From the NCBI RefSeq assembly GCF_009914755.1, contig NC_060947.1: a DNA stretch of 64,000 nt, one strand, 5' to 3'. This DNA comes from the human T2T-CHM13v2.0 reference genome, Homo sapiens. A program made the translations under genes and the position numbers. Below, in pieces: positions 43,230 to 48,394 of the stretch (position 1 is the stretch's first letter; every line of letters starts with the position of its first letter). The notes under the pieces were generated by a model that saw only the letters and a list, made by a program, of their open reading frames with translations, did no database searches and was not told where the DNA came from.

Positions 43230-44480
43230 GTTTCCCAAGTCACTAGATTTGCAGCGCACAAAACCGGAAAGGTCCCGGTAAACCTGTCCACTGGCACCTG
43301 GGCAGCGAAGCGCTTTGGCCGGAGGGCCTCAGGTCCCAGCAGCGGGATGGACAGCGGGGAGATGGCTGACCCTCCTTGGGGTGGTGTGCGTGACCTGCAT
43401 GAGTGCCTGGGGCATCTCCTGCACGGAATGGCACCCGCACCAGGTGCCCCTGGCCTCGCCAGCCAGAGGACCAGTCCTGGACGGGGAGGGGGAGGACAAG
43501 AGCAGGTGAACAGGCCCCAGAACCCGGCTCCCTGACCCTGGCCATAATGCAGAGCTGCCTGGCGCACCTCAGACCACTCCCTGGCCCTCTGGTGGGCACG
43601 CCGGGGTGCAGACCCCTCGCCCCGCTGGCACCTCCGTGGCACGTGCGGGAGGGGCAGGAGCCGGGACCAGGAACCGCTGTGGTGAGAGCCAAAGGCACGG
43701 GGACTGGCCGCCACAGACCTTTGGCCACCGCAGTGGGGATGGGGGTGGGCGGGCGCTTGTGTGCCCGGGGGCCCGGGGGCCCCCGTGGCGAGGGGGCTAG
43801 GGGAGAGGAGCAGGTGACGTCACCCGGGGACCTGGGGCCCCCAGGGGCGGCGGCGAGAGCCCGACCTCGTGACCCGTCCGCGCCAATGGCCCTGCGGTCT
43901 CCCGGACGACGCGGAGGGGTCCGCGCTGCACCGCCGCCGCGCCCCCGCCCCGTGTCCGCACTGCAGAGAGCCGCGGCGAGCAGGCGCCGGCGCACTGGCC
44001 CACGTGCTGCGCGAGCGAGGGAGAGCCACAGTCTGAGCGAACGTCCGCGCTGGGAGCCAGGGGTGCCCGACCCCCGTCCGCCGCCGCCGCCGCCGCCGCG
44101 CATAGCCCCCGGAGAGCCCTCTGGGGACCCCGACCAGAAGGGACCTTGCCCTGGGAGAAGGTAACAGACCCACCTGGGGAGGGAGACGCTGGGCCCCGGG
44201 AGACTCCGCCGCCCCTCGCCTGTCCGCCCTATCAGAACTGAAGCAGCCTGCAGGGCAGGGGTCCAGGGTCCTGGGGCAGCGCGGGGAGGGGGCTGAGGCC
44301 CGCAGAGACCCCACGGGGGGTGGGGGTGGGGGGCTGGGCAGGGGCGGGGCCTGGCTGCAGAGGCGCCGCCCGGGGAGGAGGGCGGCTGGGGGTGGGGGTG
44401 GGGGTGGGCGTGGATGTGGGCGTGCGGAGAGGTGGGCATTAACCTCGCTCTCGCCCTGCTCGCATTCACAGGCTGTGGAG
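43230..44480 (+). promoter_or_regulatory. PNMA3 CpG-island promoter, non-coding exon 1 and intron (44161-44471)
   Basis: CpG-rich; perfect CRE TGACGTCA at 43815-43822, CCAAT and GC boxes; donor AAG|GTAACA; branch-like CATTAAC and acceptor TCACAG|. Confidence 0.8.
44078..44098 (+). repeat. (CCG)7 in the PNMA3 5'UTR exon
   Basis: Read directly. Confidence 0.9.
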
Positions 44481-44577
44481 ACCTGGGCCTTCTGCGATCA
44501 CCCTAGGAGTTGATCCAGATATGTGCCTCACGCCCTGATCACTACCCCCAAATTAGTATCCGCAGAGATTCGAGGAC

Positions 44578-45969
44578 ATGCCGTTGACCTTGTTACAGGA
44601 CTGGTGTCGGGGGGAACACCTGAACACCCGGAGGTGCATGCTCATCCTGGGGATCCCCGAGGACTGTGGCGAGGATGAGTTTGAGGAGACACTCCAGGAG
44701 GCTTGCAGGCACCTGGGCAGATACAGGGTGATTGGCAGGATGTTTAGGAGGGAGGAGAACGCCCAGGCGATTCTACTGGAGCTGGCACAAGATATCGACT
44801 ATGCTTTGCTCCCAAGGGAAATACCAGGAAAGGGGGGGCCCTGGGAAGTGATTGTAAAACCCCGTAACTCAGATGGGGAATTTCTCAACAGACTGAACCG
44901 CTTCTTAGAGGAGGAGAGGCGGACCGTGTCAGATATGAACCGAGTCCTCGGGTCGGACACCAATTGTTCGGCTCCAAGAGTGACTATATCACCAGAGTTC
45001 TGGACCTGGGCCCAGACTCTGGGGGCAGCAGTGCAGCCTCTGCTAGAACAAATGTTGTACCGAGAACTAAGAGTGTTTTCTGGGAACACCATATCCATCC
45101 CAGGTGCACTGGCCTTTGATGCCTGGCTTGAGCACACCACTGAGATGCTACAGATGTGGCAGGTGCCCGAGGGGGAAAAGAGGCGGAGGCTGATGGAATG
45201 CTTACGGGGCCCTGCTCTCCAGGTGGTCAGTGGGCTCCGGGCCAGCAATGCTTCCATAACTGTGGAGGAGTGCCTGGCTGCCTTGCAGCAGGTGTTCGGA
45301 CCTGTGGAGAGCCATAAAATTGCCCAGGTGAAGTTGTGTAAAGCCTATCAGGAGGCAGGAGAGAAAGTATCTAGCTTTGTGTTACGTTTGGAACCCCTGC
45401 TCCAAAGAGCTGTAGAAAACAATGTGGTATCACGTAGAAACGTGAATCAGACTCGCCTGAAACGAGTCTTAAGTGGGGCCACCCTTCCTGACAAACTCCG
45501 AGATAAGCTTAAGCTGATGAAACAGCGAAGGAAGCCTCCTGGTTTCCTGGCCCTGGTGAAGCTCCTGCGTGAGGAGGAGGAATGGGAGGCCACTTTAGGT
45601 CCAGATAGGGAGAGTCTGGAGGGGCTGGAAGTAGCCCCAAGGCCACCTGCCAGGATCACTGGGGTTGGGGCAGTACCTCTCCCTGCCTCTGGCAACAGTT
45701 TTGATGCGAGGCCTTCCCAGGGCTACCGGCGCCGGAGGGGCAGAGGCCAACACCGAAGGGGTGGTGTGGCAAGGGCTGGCTCTCGAGGCTCAAGAAAACG
45801 GAAACGCCACACATTCTGCTATAGCTGTGGGGAAGACGGCCACATCAGGGTACAGTGCATCAACCCCTCCAACCTGCTCTTGGTAAAGCAGAAGAAACAG
45901 GCTGCAGTTGAGTCGGGAAACGGGAACTGGGCTTGGGACAAGAGCCATCCCAAGTCCAAGGCCAAGTAG
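44578..45969 (+). CDS. PNMA3: Paraneoplastic antigen Ma3 (Gag-like: N-terminal domain, capsid-like domain, CCHC zinc knuckle), 463 aa
   Basis: MPLTLLQDWCRGEHLNTRRCMLILGIP... recognised; CYSCGEDGHIRVQC knuckle at 45817-45858. Confidence 0.98.
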   Translation: MPLTLLQDWCRGEHLNTRRCMLILGIPEDCGEDEFEETLQEACRHLGRYRVIGRMFRREENAQAILLELAQDIDYALLPREIPGKGGPWEVIVKPRNSDGEFLNRLNRFLEEERRTVSDMNRVLGSDTNCSAPRVTISPEFWTWAQTLGAAVQPLLEQMLYRELRVFSGNTISIPGALAFDAWLEHTTEMLQMWQVPEGEKRRRLMECLRGPALQVVSGLRASNASITVEECLAALQQVFGPVESHKIAQVKLCKAYQEAGEKVSSFVLRLEPLLQRAVENNVVSRRNVNQTRLKRVLSGATLPDKLRDKLKLMKQRRKPPGFLALVKLLREEEEWEATLGPDRESLEGLEVAPRPPARITGVGAVPLPASGNSFDARPSQGYRRRRGRGQHRRGGVARAGSRGSRKRKRHTFCYSCGEDGHIRVQCINPSNLLLVKQKKQAAVESGNGNWAWDKSHPKSKAK

Positions 45970-45973
45970 GCTC
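45915..45973 (+). other. PNMA3: -1 programmed ribosomal frameshift signal (slippery heptamer plus H-type pseudoknot)
   Basis: In-frame G GGA AAC (45915-45921), 6-nt spacer, stem1 TGGGCTTGGGA/TCCCAAGTCCA (45928-38/45948-58), stem2 GAGCC/GGCTC (45942-46/45969-73). A PNMA3 frameshift signal is known from the literature. Confidence 0.92.
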
Positions 45974-46706
45974 GGGAGAACAGGGCAACATTTCCTACCA
46001 CAGGCCAAGGAGACAAAAGAGATATTGGAAGGAGGGGAAAGAGAAGCCCAGACAAACAGCAGATGAGTTGAGTGGGGCAGAGGGACAGGGCAGCCAGACC
46101 AAGGCCAAGCCTTCTCACCCTTGGCCAGCTGGAAGGGACTTCAGCAACCAAGACCACCTGGCAACAGGCTCAGTGGGGGTCAGGTCCAGGTCCCCGAAGA
46201 GGTGCTGGAGAGGAAAGCAGGGAGCCACTGCATCCAGCACATGGGGTGCCTGGGCCTCAGATGGGGACCCCAAAGAAGCAGAAGCTGAAGAAGGTACGGC
46301 TGGGGGTTCTGTCCTGCTCATCCAACCACCCCTAAATACCCACCCTGTGGACTTTGAGCTGAACATGCCCACTGGCCCCCAGGCCACATGGGACCTGGAG
46401 GAGCCTACCTGGGGCCTGCCCCTGCCAGCAGGTGCCAGGGCTGGTGAGGAAGAGCTGGGGGGCAGAGGTAAAGCCCTGCAGGGGAGGCCACAGGGTCCAT
46501 CCCGTCTTCAGGATCATCTACACTGCACTAGGGGAGCCCCAGGAAGGCAGCACCCTGGAGGCCCTGTGCCAGTGAGGACAGGAGACCCTAAGGCCCCGGG
46601 AGCCCAGTGCCAGCCAGAGGTTGTGCAGGCAAGGAGACCAAAGATTGATGAGAAGACCCCCAGCAGGGGTACTGGGTACCCGGCAGGCCAGTGCCCTCAC
46701 AGTTGA
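45921..46706 (+). CDS. PNMA3: -1 frame extension of PNMA3 (261 codons; fusion about 709 aa)
   Basis: The -1 frame is open from the slip site to TGA 46704-46706. Confidence 0.6.
   Translation, partial: RELGLGQEPSQVQGQVGSGEQGNISYHRPRRQKRYWKEGKEKPRQTADELSGAEGQGSQTKAKPSHPWPAGRDFSNQDHLATGSVGVRSRSPKRCWRGKQGATASSTWGAWASDGDPKEAEAEEGTAGGSVLLIQPPLNTHPVDFELNMPTGPQATWDLEEPTWGLPLPAGARAGEEELGGRGKALQGRPQGPSRLQDHLHCTRGAPGRQHPGGPVPVRTGDPKAPGAQCQPEVVQARRPKIDEKTPSRGTGYPAGQCPHS
46004..46066 (+). CDS. PNMA3: Alternative spliced PNMA3 C-terminus AKETKEILEGGEREAQTNSR* (455-aa isoform; intron 45883-46003)
   Basis: Donor TTG|GTAAAG and acceptor tttcctaccacag|GCC. Matches my recollection of a 455-aa PNMA3 isoform. 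Confidence 0.75.
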   Translation, partial: AKETKEILEGGEREAQTNSR

Positions 46707-47964
46707 CTTGGACCAGGGTGGCTGTGAAGGGAAGTCTTTGTTGCAAAGGAGGAGGAGGAAAAGGGAGGACTTGGTAGGGTTTTGTTTCTTCTGCTTGTTT
46801 CTGTACAGGGCCACCAGACTCCTGGAGAGATCAAGCAAGGAGAACCTGGGGCTGCCATGGCCAAAGCAACTCAACAGATGCCAATGCCAATTCCAAGGCC
46901 AGCCACAACCCTGCCACCTTGGGGAATCCAGCCTGGAGGCATCCCCTAAGCAGCCAGCCATGGCCTGGGTGGAGGCACCTGAAGACGTCTGTCCCAAACT
47001 CCCCCAGCCCTGAGCTGGGAGATGACAGGGGGAAAGAGGCCCTCTCAAGGGTGCCAGATGCCTGGGTCTCCCAAGAGGGGTCCCCCAACTCACCGTTCCC
47101 GGGACAGGCTGCCCCCTGTTCCAGGAAGCTCATCCTCACCTGTGTAGGCCCCTGTAGTGACCCACGCGTCCAGCAGACGCCCACCCACCGCTAGCCGTTG
47201 TTCCTGTGCAAAGTAGTGTGCTATGCACCCACCCAGGTGGCCGCCTCTGGGCCCAAGGCACATGCTGTGAGCTTCCTGTGAGCCCAGGCTCTGCTCACTG
47301 CTGTCCCGCGTCATGAGCACCACCTCTGCTTTCCCTGTGTAGATCTAGGCCAGTGGCTGCTTGTTCTTGTGGAGCTGTGTGTGTTCTTCTCTGAGCAGCT
47401 CCTCCCCGGAGTCCCCCAGCACAGTCCCAGGAGATGACAGGAAGGAAGCACCAGGGCAAGGCGGACGCTCACCCTGTGACCACGATGGTGACCGTGACTG
47501 TGGGAGGAAGAACTGGACCCAGGACAGAGCGGGGCTGCCCTGCCTGAGGCTCCCGAGGAGCTTTGTGCTTTGGTGTTCCACCCCTGTTGTTACTCATGAC
47601 TCAGTTTCCTTGACCTGGTAGGGTGTTCCCTGCTGTGTTTTCCAGTGTCCTGTGACTGTCCTGTGCGGGCCATAGGGCAGGGCCCTGCCCCAGCAGATGG
47701 GCTTGGGAGGGGGCTCCCTAAAGCCAGTGGACACTGCCAGAGTCTACCTTCCTGGCAAGAGGCAGACCCCGGGGCCCTCAGGAAGGAGGGAGTTGGCAGC
47801 GGGGGCTGCAGCAGGAGTAGGAGCAGATGAGGCGTCTTGCCAGGAACCTCAGGAGGAGGGGGCCCGGGACCTGTGTGGGACCTGTGTCCTGTGGTGGCCG
47901 TTTGCAGTTTCTCTCTGTGTTGTGATTCCCTTCTCTTCAACGGTTTCAGTACGTGTTTCTCTTC

Positions 47965-47970
47965 AATAAA
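47965..47970 (+). terminator. PNMA3 poly(A) signal
   Basis: AATAAA ending the shared PNMA 3'UTR module, followed by a GU-rich element. Confidence 0.8.
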
Positions 47971-48394
47971 CTTCATTCAGTGTTCCAGCCGGCCTCGCCT
48001 CTGCTGTGGGAAACTGGGGATGAGGTTGGCTGGGGATGGGGTTGGGGTGGAGTGAGGGCCACAGTGGCTTTGTTAACACTGGTGTATACTTGGGGCTCGG
48101 TCTGCAAGGCATTCTAGAATGCCCTATCTGCGCATGTTGGTCATGAGCTAGGGTTCACGGCCCACGGACCCAGGCAAAGAAACCCAGCTGAGCAGGCTGG
48201 ATAGTCCCAGTAGACAGGACACTGGTAGGCCCAGGCAGTGGCTGGTTGGGTCCTCAGGGCACTGGTTGAGCTTCTCAGAAATGAATAACATATTTAAGGA
48301 AGGGTGAGGGACAGCAGGCTGGACCAGTGGCCCCAGGATCCCTTGTATCACTATTGGGCTTCCACACCTGGAGCATCAAAACCAGGCCCATCTC

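What the first reader, a model, noticed from the sequence alone, without database searches (positions are those of the whole stretch)
45883..46706. Three-way C-terminal switch in PNMA3: a 121-nt alternative intron removes the whole -1 frameshift cassette
Seen: just after the CCHC knuckle, a GT-AG intron (45883-46003) encloses the slippery G GGA AAC, both pseudoknot stems and the 0-frame stop (45967-45969). If retained, the products are a 463-aa protein (frame 0) and a ~709-aa -1 product. If spliced, the product is a 455-aa protein with an acidic tail (AKETKEILEGGEREAQTNSR) read in the +1 frame, replacing a Lys-rich tail. The three possible C-termini come from the three reading frames. Known: the PNMA3 frameshift, and as I recall a 455-aa isoform, are each reported. 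Inference: splicing works as an on/off switch for ribosomal recoding and sets capsid subunit composition or tail charge. I have not seen this coupling described.
Basis: partly seen in the sequence, partly recalled or inferred. Interest (0 to 1): 0.85.

Follow-up and report, generated by a model that had tools for sequence, protein, structure and literature searches.

The report
PNMA3 alternative intron removes frameshift signal
A short optional intron in the human gene PNMA3 cuts out the whole signal that makes ribosomes slip into another reading frame, so spliced and unspliced messages give different protein ends; the parts are already annotated, and whether cells use this as a switch is not shown.

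Summary
The 121-nt GT-AG segment 45883-46003 encloses the in-phase slippery GGGAAAC, the 11-bp stem, the second pseudoknot arm and the frame-0 stop. Conceptual products are 463 aa (frame 0), 709 aa (-1) and 455 aa (spliced, +1 tail). The intron is already a RefSeq alternative transcript (hub table) and the frameshift is published, so the parts are known. Seven full-text searches found no paper linking the two; Wills 2006 was not readable.

The splice signals are weak, so I expect a minor isoform. I could reach no RNA-seq data, so regulation is untested. Gene models from cheetah and meerkat use the same junction and a homologous +1 tail. A kangaroo-rat model also reads that frame. This suggests the sites persist outside primates, but such models can be copied from the human isoform.

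Side finding: in other mammals the -1 frame ends in a strongly conserved motif (…VFRIIYTALGEPQEGSTLE…). In human PNMA3 and PNMA5 that motif lies one frame off, so the human 709-aa product lacks the ancestral C-terminus. A second annotated intron (46294-46808) adds a fourth possible C-terminus.

The parts
44578..45969 (+). PNMA3 frame-0 CDS (463 aa): PNMA_N, PNMA capsid-like domain, CCHC knuckle, Lys-rich tail
   Evidence: Translation. Pfam PNMA_N 1-92 (E 3e-41) and PNMA 167-327 (E 1e-72). Hub RefSeq row.
45817..45858 (+). CCHC zinc knuckle (residues 414-427, CYSCGEDGHIRVQC)
   Evidence: Pattern found. Pfam zf-CCHC scores 16.5 bits, below its 20.8 cut-off.
45883..46003 (+). 121-nt alternative GT-AG intron inside the last exon (exitron-like). 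Donor TTG|GTAAAG, acceptor ...TTTCCTACCACAG|G
   Evidence: Hub RefSeq row lists exons 44472-45882 and 46004-47987.
45915..45921 (+). Slippery heptamer G_GGA_AAC in the correct phase
   Evidence: phase 2. Frameshifting at GGGAAAC in PNMA3 is cited.
45928..45958 (+). Pseudoknot stem 1: 11-bp hairpin (45928-38 / 45948-58) with 9-nt loop, 6-nt spacer after the heptamer
   Evidence: strand folding MFE and centroid. Arms printed.
45942..45973 (+). Pseudoknot stem 2: loop GAGCC 45942-46 pairs with GGCUC 45969-73. The 3' arm starts at the last base of the stop codon.
   Evidence: Complementarity checked. Both arms are identical in PNMA5. 'Classical H-type pseudoknot' per the review passage.
45967..45969 (+). 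Frame-0 stop codon TAG, inside the alternative intron
45921..46706 (+). RF2: -1 frame, 261 codons plus TGA; conceptual transframe product 709 aa
   Evidence: No Pfam domain. 54% identical over 176 aa to a bat model reading the same frame.
46004..46066 (+). +1-frame tail of the spliced isoform (20 codons plus TGA); overlaps RF2
   Evidence: Homologous tails in cheetah and meerkat models map here: 59% over 34 aa and 55% over 20 aa.
46294..46808 (+). Second annotated alternative intron (515 nt, AAG|GTACGG ... TGTACAG|G) inside RF2
   Evidence: Hub RefSeq row (exons 44472-46293, 46809-47987). Y-tract 0.77; the -1 product on this mRNA would be 700 aa; the frame-0 stop lies 324 nt upstream of the junction.
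46465..46575 (+). Conserved peptide-coding block EVKPCRGGHRVHPVFRIIYTALGEPQEGSTLEALCQ plus TGA. In human it lies in frame 0; in other mammals it is the in-frame C-terminus of RF2.
   Evidence: PNMA3/PNMA5 similarity ends just after this TGA.

Best explanation
45883-46003 is a genuine, already annotated alternative intron inside the last exon of PNMA3, a domesticated Ty3/gypsy-type gag gene.

When the intron is retained (the RefSeq-selected mRNA), ribosomes make the 463-aa Gag-like protein. A published minority shift -1 at G_GGA_AAC, stimulated by the hairpin/pseudoknot, and extend into RF2.

When the intron is removed, the slip site, both stems and the frame-0 stop all go. The mRNA can then only make a 455-aa protein whose last 20 residues come from the +1 frame. 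So the two processes exclude each other per mRNA molecule. This follows directly from the sequence.

Inferred: the donor and acceptor are weak, and the donor GT sits in an invariant Val codon. I therefore think the spliced form is a minor isoform that persists because coding constraint keeps the sites competent. Its biological use is unproven. It lowers the pool of frameshift-competent mRNA and swaps a +5 tail next to the zinc knuckle for a -1 tail. In human, the frameshift product it excludes has already lost the conserved ancestral RF2 C-terminus.
For: Anatomy. Annotation: the hub RefSeq row lists both exon pairs.

Frameshifting: passages read in PMC11299033 give 8.5-11% in vitro, ribosome footprints past the stop, and a conserved slip site. 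A passage in PMC5009743 gives about 20% and an H-type pseudoknot.

Weak splice signals: the donor matches 5 of 9 consensus positions. The pyrimidine fraction at -25..-4 is 0.50, against 0.73 and 0.77 for the gene's other two introns. There is no yUnAy branch motif.

Not an RT template-switch artefact: the ends are canonical GT-AG and share only 1-2 nt of microhomology.

Orthologue models: of the 30 sequences with the CCHC pattern (human plus 29 of the 31 fetched cluster representatives), 27 read frame 0, 2 use the identical junction (...PLL|AEETKE...) and 1 more reads the +1 frame. L-V is invariant at the junction in 28 of 28 unspliced-type sequences.

Loss of the RF2 C-terminus in human.
Against: I could examine no junction reads, PSI values, Ribo-seq phasing or peptides, so 'minor isoform' rests only on signal strength and on RefSeq's choice of the unspliced transcript.

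The same junction in cheetah (a cluster of 19 sequences) and meerkat, and a +1 tail in kangaroo rat, could mean the splice is maintained by selection. That would favour the regulated-switch reading.

Reduced synonymous variation around the slip site was attributed to frameshifting, but it would also fit splicing signals.

DNA-level conservation of the GT, the AG and the pyrimidine tract could not be tested, because no mammalian DNA is reachable with these tools.
Confidence: 0.62

Rival explanations
1. Regulated switch. Splicing of the 121-nt intron is controlled by cell type or state and tunes how much Gag-RF2 fusion and which Gag tail enters PNMA3 capsids. This would parallel how retroelements set their Gag:Pol ratio.
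For: Mutual exclusivity is certain. The identical junction and a homologous +1 tail appear in two carnivore models, and the +1 frame in one rodent model. RF2 carries a strongly conserved C-terminal motif in other mammals, so the frameshift product probably has a function worth regulating. Ty1/copia elements use alternative splicing to make a GAG-only RNA (abstract of PMC5580714).
Against: The splice signals are weak. The +1 tail varies in length across species (20 to about 88 aa) and overlaps RF2, so it has no independent sign of constraint. Non-human models may be projected from the human isoform. In human the conserved RF2 motif is out of frame, and published primate dN/dS for RF2 is above 1. 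No paper or data on regulation was found.
Confidence: 0.22
2. Pure splicing noise. The segment is an occasionally used cryptic intron with no biological consequence, recorded in RefSeq from a few cDNAs.
For: Weak donor, poor pyrimidine tract and no branch-point consensus. The donor GT is explained by an invariant Val codon. Kordis 2011 lists PNMA3 alternative events for human only (table read).
Against: The same junction is modelled in at least two non-primate clusters. The stop of the spliced form lies in the last exon, so the mRNA should be stable and translated.
Confidence: 0.13
3. Annotation or reverse-transcription artefact. The 'intron' would be a cDNA deletion caused by the stable hairpin, not spliceosomal removal.
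For: The segment holds an 11-bp GC-rich hairpin, a known cause of RT skipping (general knowledge).
Against: The boundaries are exact GT...AG, with no direct repeat longer than 1-2 nt at the two ends. Independent gene models in other species use the same boundaries.
Confidence: 0.03

Closest known systems
PNMA3 (Ma3) -1 programmed ribosomal frameshift (Wills et al. 2006, cited; the paper itself was not readable)
   Same: It is the same cassette: GGGAAAC, a 6-nt spacer, an H-type pseudoknot, and an RF2 with no known domain.
   Different: In the text I could read, published work treats a single mRNA. None of it notes that an annotated splice removes the whole cassette, or that RF2 has a conserved C-terminal motif that is out of frame in human.
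PEG10 -1 frameshift (Gag / Gag-protease)
   Same: A domesticated gypsy-type gag gene with the same heptamer and a minority transframe product.
   Different: PEG10's RF2 encodes a conserved protease. Its described splice variant lies at the exon 1 / 5' end (Lux 2010, passages read), not around the frameshift site.
Ty1/copia alternative splicing that yields a GAG-only subgenomic RNA (Oberlin 2017, abstract read; BARE, Chang 2013, search listing only; Drosophila copia, recalled)
   Same: Splicing decides whether an mRNA can make Gag alone or Gag plus downstream product, and so sets the ratio of structural to extended protein.
   Different: Those elements have one gag-pol ORF and no frameshift. 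Their intron removes protease/pol sequence and is coupled to premature termination. Here the intron removes a recoding signal in a host gene, and function is unproven.
Exitrons: alternatively spliced introns inside protein-coding exons (concept recalled from Marquez et al. 2015; no paper pairs 'exitron' with PNMA3)
   Same: A short GT-AG intron inside an otherwise exonic, coding stretch. Its length is not a multiple of 3, so the C-terminus changes.
   Different: This one spans the frame-0 stop and a recoding cassette, and it is coding throughout only in the -1 frame.

Membership tests
-1 programmed ribosomal frameshift cassette | X_XXY_YYZ slippery heptamer in the zero-frame phase | tested here: met
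   G_GGA_AAC at 45915-21; the first base is codon position 3.
-1 programmed ribosomal frameshift cassette | Stable downstream structure 5-8 nt after the heptamer | tested here: met
   6-nt spacer, then an 11-bp hairpin in both MFE and centroid. The 89-nt stretch as a whole is only modestly better than shuffles (z -1.56; 12 of 200 shuffles fold as well).
-1 programmed ribosomal frameshift cassette | Pseudoknot: loop bases pair with downstream sequence | tested here: inconclusive
   A 5-bp GAGCC/GGCUC complementarity is present and identical in PNMA5. No covariation is available, and ViennaRNA does not model pseudoknots. The review passage calls it an H-type pseudoknot.
-1 programmed ribosomal frameshift cassette | Open -1 frame giving an extended product | tested here: met
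   261 codons to TGA 46704-06.
-1 programmed ribosomal frameshift cassette | Measured frameshifting | not testable with these tools
   Literature only: 8.5-11% and about 20%.
U2-type spliceosomal GT-AG intron | GT at the 5' end, AG at the 3' end, length above about 70 nt | tested here: met
   45883-84 GT, 46002-03 AG, 121 nt.
U2-type spliceosomal GT-AG intron | Donor complementarity to U1 (CAG|GTAAGT) | tested here: inconclusive
   5 of 9 positions match (-1 to +4 contiguous), against 6 of 9 for the gene's other two introns. The consensus string is recalled.
U2-type spliceosomal GT-AG intron | Polypyrimidine tract and branch-point motif | tested here: not met
   Y fraction 0.50. No yUnAy motif; only a loose AGAAC with its A 23 nt from the 3' splice site. 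This is read as a weak site, not as no intron.
U2-type spliceosomal GT-AG intron | Transcript evidence for the junction | not testable with these tools
   Only the hub's RefSeq exon rows, plus models in other species with the same junction. No reads could be examined.
PNMA / Gag-like capsid family | PNMA_N and PNMA (capsid) domains | tested here: met
   Pfam E 3e-41 and 1e-72, both above cut-off.
PNMA / Gag-like capsid family | CCHC zinc knuckle | tested here: inconclusive
   The C-X2-C-X4-H-X4-C pattern is present and conserved in 30 of 32 sequences. Pfam zf-CCHC scores 16.5 bits, below its 20.8 cut-off.

The most novel reading that the evidence does not exclude
The 121-nt exitron is an old (at least boreoeutherian) and maintained device. 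It decides, mRNA by mRNA, whether PNMA3 can append RF2 to its capsid protein. In most mammals RF2 carries a conserved C-terminal motif (…RRVQPVFRIIYTALGEPQEGSTLEPLR). In the human lineage that motif was put out of frame in both PNMA3 and PNMA5, probably spread by gene conversion. Human frameshifting would then make a new C-terminus, and the splice/frameshift circuit would be in the process of being rewired or dismantled.
Probability: 0.15. Interest if true: 0.7.

Novelty: new variant of a known kind. Interest (0 to 1): 0.45.

Why it matters
PNMA3 is one of only three retroelement-derived human genes with accepted -1 frameshifting (PEG10, PNMA3, PNMA5). Its protein is reported to form capsids. 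If the ratio of spliced to unspliced mRNA varies, it would be a simple endogenous way to change capsid tail charge and the share of extended subunits. It would also confound frameshift estimates made from footprints or antibodies.

The side finding changes how RF2 should be read. The literature calls RF2 poorly conserved with no functional element. In other mammals, however, it ends in a sharply conserved motif that the human gene no longer reads in frame. That bears on published dN/dS above 1 in primates. It also bears on using human PNMA3 as the model for the frameshift product's function.

Tried and rejected
The supplement of PMC11299033 lists accessions only. The held supplement text of PMC11011659 has no PNMA3 or slip-site sequence.

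2. A search for more proteins with the +1 tail, using cheetah P0009 residues 428-469, returned only the query (1 of 3 candidates). The word-based method cannot see diverged short tails, so this says nothing about absence.

4. Wills et al. 2006 is not held, so I cannot exclude that it mentions the splice.

5. An equivalent intron in the paralogue PNMA5: the donor region is not homologous, because PNMA5 lacks the knuckle-LVK context at that place. The PNMA3 acceptor falls in a 9-nt gap of the alignment. Nothing could be concluded.

6. Codon-position bias of PNMA3/PNMA5 differences in 46250-46549 was 12, 9 and 14 by position. This is too flat to name the selected frame.

7. I looked for a simple splice that would bring the human frame-0 motif in frame with gag or RF2. 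The candidate AGs near 46464-65 and 46480-81 give the wrong phase or an immediate stop (hand reading). Rejected.

8. Pfam finds no domain in RF2 or in the frame-0 block.

9. Searches for the transcript accession, the UniProt isoform id and the motif string in papers returned 0 papers.
Full report
OBSERVATION

I read 45700-46900, translated the annotated CDS and recomputed every product.
- The CDS 44578-45969 gives 463 aa.
- The segment 45883-46003 starts with GT, ends with AG and is 121 nt long.
- GGGAAAC lies at 45915-21, with its first G in the third position of a zero-frame codon, the X_XXY_YYZ phase.
- The zero-frame stop TAG (45967-69) lies inside the segment.
- Re-reading from 45921 in the -1 frame gives 261 codons up to TGA 46704-06, so the conceptual transframe product is 709 aa.
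- Joining 45882 to 46004 gives 455 aa ending AKETKEILEGGEREAQTNSR, with the stop at 46064-66.
- The three tails use genomic frames 0, 2 and 1.

Strand folding places an 11-bp hairpin (45928-38 with 45948-58, 9-nt loop) six bases after the heptamer, in both the MFE and the centroid structure. The whole 89-nt stretch is only moderately better than shuffles (z -1.56). Loop bases GAGCC (45942-46) are complementary to GGCUC (45969-73), which begins at the last base of the stop codon. So the slip site, both stems and the stop are all inside the 121 nt.

The hub's RefSeq row lists exons 44472-45882 and 46004-47987 for another PNMA3 transcript. The intron is therefore annotated and is not merely one of many possible GT...AG pairs (6 GT and 24 AG flank the cassette).

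Two corrections:
- The spliced tail is only net -1 (4 K/R, 5 E), against +5 for the frame-0 tail.
- A third annotated transcript removes 46294-46808, which lies inside the -1 frame.

WHAT IS KNOWN

Passages read in PMC11299033 make four points about PNMA3:
- It frameshifts at GGGAAAC, at 8.5-11% in vitro (citing Khan 2022).
- Ribosome footprints continue past the gag stop.
- The slip site and a dip in synonymous variation are conserved across placentals.
- RF2 is fully disordered, resembles no Pol protein, and has dN/dS above 1 in primates.

The NAR 2016 review passage gives about 20% efficiency and a classical H-type pseudoknot. Henriques 2024 calls the sequence after the frameshift poorly conserved and of unclear relevance. 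Kordis 2011 lists three alternative splicing events for PNMA3 (intron isoform, intron retention), in human only, without reference to frameshifting.

None of the passages I read links the splice to the frameshift. Seven full-text searches found no such statement:
- PNMA3 + frameshift: 16 papers.
- PNMA3 + alternative splicing: 9 papers.
- PNMA3 + capsid + isoform: 6 papers.
- PNMA3 + exitron: 0 papers.
- Ma3 + frameshift + pseudoknot + splic: 22 papers.
- Transcript accession, isoform id and motif string: 0 papers.
- PNMA3 + intron retention: 1 paper.

The original Wills 2006 paper is not held, so I cannot say what it contains. From memory, not from any call, the RefSeq gene summary mentions both the frameshift and alternative splicing, without connecting them.

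HOW STRONG IS THE INTRON

- The donor TTG|GTAAAG matches 5 of 9 positions of the recalled consensus CAG|GTAAGT, with contiguous pairing from -1 to +4.
- The pyrimidine fraction at -25..-4 is 0.50. For the constitutive 5'-UTR intron it is 0.73, and for the 515-nt alternative intron 0.77.
- No yUnAy branch motif is present. The only candidate is a loose AGAAC with its A 23 nt from the 3' splice site.

These are the signals of a weakly used or regulated intron. RefSeq selects the unspliced transcript. The two ends share only 1-2 nt of microhomology and are canonical GT-AG, which argues against a reverse-transcriptase skipping artefact across the hairpin. The stop of the spliced form lies in the last exon, so that mRNA should not be a nonsense-mediated-decay target. 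This last point is an inference from the 50-55-nt rule.

CONSERVATION, AS FAR AS IT COULD BE TESTED

No mammalian DNA is reachable with these tools. Two supplement look-ups gave accessions only, or nothing. The protein database does hold mammalian models. A search with the 463-aa protein gave 120 hits at E <= 1e-20. I fetched the 31 PNMA3-like cluster representatives and sorted them, together with the human protein, by what follows the CCHC knuckle. Of these 32 sequences:
- 30 have the knuckle.
- 27 of the 30 continue in frame 0.
- 2 switch exactly after the residue before the human donor into a tail homologous to the human +1 tail. These are P0009 (cheetah isoform X2, a cluster of 19 sequences) and P0014 (meerkat); the junction reads ...PLL|AEETKE[IL]LE....
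- 1, P0024 (Ord's kangaroo rat X1), reads ...LVKQTKDILEK... and then the +1 frame for about 88 residues. Its junction is ambiguous between the human position and one three codons later.
- 2 models lack the knuckle and jump into RF2.

tblastn maps the cheetah tail to 46004-46105 in frame 1 (59% over 34 aa, E 5e-9) and the meerkat tail to 46004-46063 (55%). At the donor, Leu-Val is invariant in 28 of 28 sequences that read through it, so the GT is fixed by a Val codon.

I read this as evidence that GT and AG sit at the same places in at least some carnivores, with an open +1 frame. There are three caveats:
- Such models may be projected from the human isoform rather than supported by reads.
- Tail length varies (20, 21, 34 and about 88 residues).
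- The same 60 nt also encode RF2, which is about equally conserved. I therefore cannot credit any constraint to the +1 tail itself.

A targeted search for more such tails found only the query.

MECHANISM

Shown by sequence: an mRNA without 45883-46003 cannot frameshift at this site and cannot terminate at the frame-0 stop. An mRNA that retains the segment cannot make the +1 tail.

Inferred: since the published shift rate is about 10-20% of ribosomes, the share of RF2-bearing protein equals that rate times the unspliced fraction. Splicing can therefore only lower it. It also replaces a basic tail (+5) right after the zinc knuckle with a near-neutral one (-1). Whether cells vary the splice ratio is unknown. 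I put 0.62 on 'real intron, mutually exclusive outputs, probably a minor isoform of unproven use'. I put 0.22 on a regulated switch, 0.13 on pure noise and 0.03 on artefact.

THE -1 FRAME IS NOT WHAT IT SEEMS IN HUMAN (side finding)

A squirrel model (P0025) matched human RF2 weakly (37% over 104 aa, frame 2). It then matched 46465-46560 at 84% over 32 aa in frame 0.

Three-frame translation shows EVKPCRGGHRVHPVFRIIYTALGEPQEGSTLEALCQ* in the gag frame at 46465-46575. Human RF2 reads the same bases as ...RPQGPSRLQDHLHC... and runs on to 46704. Human PNMA5, fetched from the same genome, has the same layout: the motif is in frame 0, with an internal TGA, and RF2 stops shortly after. These are the only two copies in the human genome (a third hit at E 4.7 is chance).

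In bat PNMA5 (P0122, 590 aa) and mouse PNMA5 (P0123, 618 aa), the RF2-homologous sequence runs in frame into ...RRVQPV[FL]RIIYTALGEP[QH]EGSTLE..R. as the C-terminus.

An exhaustive phmmer search with the 37-residue human block gave 14 hits at E <= 0.001. One (P0136) is an unrelated repeat protein. The other 13 all carry the motif, at or near the C-terminus in 12, and in frame with RF2-like sequence upstream (alignment of ten of them with both human readings). There is an ascertainment bias here: an out-of-frame copy would not be predicted as a long ORF. Even so, the in-frame state is clearly widespread and occurs in both paralogues.

By comparison with these sequences, the human frame offset lies within the roughly 20 nt before 46480.

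Human PNMA3 and PNMA5 compare as follows:
- 82-92% identical in DNA, with no indel, over 46250-46549 (46070-46249 is 75-82%; no indel over the whole of 46070-46549).
- Similarity collapses just after the frame-0 TGA.
- Their gag proteins are only 50% identical (168 of 339).
- Their gag CDS are 59% identical.
- Human-to-squirrel RF2 identity is far lower than human paralogue-to-paralogue identity.

I infer gene conversion between the two human genes, which would explain why both carry the same offset.

Consequences:
- The human 709-aa product lacks the ancestral conserved C-terminus.
- This fits the reported primate dN/dS above 1.
- It qualifies statements that RF2 has no conserved element.

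I found the motif string in no paper. Pfam finds nothing in it. What the motif does is unknown.

A FOURTH OUTPUT

The annotated 515-nt intron (46294-46808; good donor and pyrimidine tract) lies inside RF2. On that mRNA the -1 product would be 700 aa with yet another tail, and the conserved block is removed. The frame-0 stop would sit 324 nt upstream of an exon junction. By the usual rule this predicts decay after frame-0 termination, unless frameshifted ribosomes clear the junction. This is inference only.

COMPARISON AND NOVELTY

The cassette is the published PNMA3 frameshift signal, and the intron is an annotated exitron-type event. Neither is new.

The nearest working analogue is the Ty1/copia strategy. 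There, alternative splicing produces a GAG-only RNA to set the ratio of structural to catalytic protein (abstract of PMC5580714). In PNMA3 the intron removes a recoding signal rather than pol sequence, in a host gene.

I rate the coupling as a new variant of a known kind, with modest interest (0.45). It is geometrically certain, and I did not find it described. But it is functionally untested and visible in any genome browser. The out-of-frame RF2 motif is the more surprising result and deserves its own check.

Noticed in passing
window 46465-46575 (and PNMA5, L002 minus strand): The block EVKPCRGGHRVHPVFRIIYTALGEPQEGSTLEALCQ* is in the gag frame in human PNMA3 and PNMA5. In squirrel PNMA3, bat and mouse PNMA5 and 13 of 13 mammalian library hits it is the in-frame C-terminus of the -1 ORF. 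Human RF2 therefore lacks the ancestral conserved end.
   Followed up: yes
window 46070-46575 vs L002: Human PNMA3 and PNMA5 are 82-92% identical in DNA over 46250-46549, with no indel over 46070-46549. Their gag CDS are 59% identical and their gag proteins 50%. Similarity ends just after the frame-0 TGA. This looks like gene conversion of the 3' region.
   Followed up: partly
window 46294-46808: A second annotated alternative intron lies inside RF2. It would give a 700-aa -1 product with a different tail, remove the conserved block, and place the frame-0 stop 324 nt upstream of an exon junction (a predicted NMD context).
   Followed up: partly
P0023, P0025, P0125 (orthologue models): Several gene models in other species join gag to RF2-like sequence through predicted introns that skip the knuckle or the stop. 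These are probably predictor work-arounds for the frameshift. Mouse PNMA5 (P0123, 618 aa) reads gag, RF2-like sequence and the motif as one ORF.
   Followed up: no
window 45910-45966: The conserved frame-0 tail (...ESGNGNWAWDKSHPK...) is encoded by the slip site and stem 1. Its protein conservation across 27 orthologue clusters may simply mirror RNA-level constraint.
   Followed up: no
L002 (PNMA5) cassette, aligned to window 45915-45975: PNMA5 keeps the heptamer and stem 2 but has two non-pairing positions in stem 1 relative to PNMA3. This fits its lower reported frameshift rate (4.2-4.9% against 8.5-11%).
   Followed up: partly
window 45817-45858: The CCHC knuckle matches Pfam zf-CCHC only below the curated cut-off (16.5 vs 20.8 bits), although the C-X2-C-X4-H-X4-C pattern is kept in 30 of 32 sequences.
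   Followed up: no
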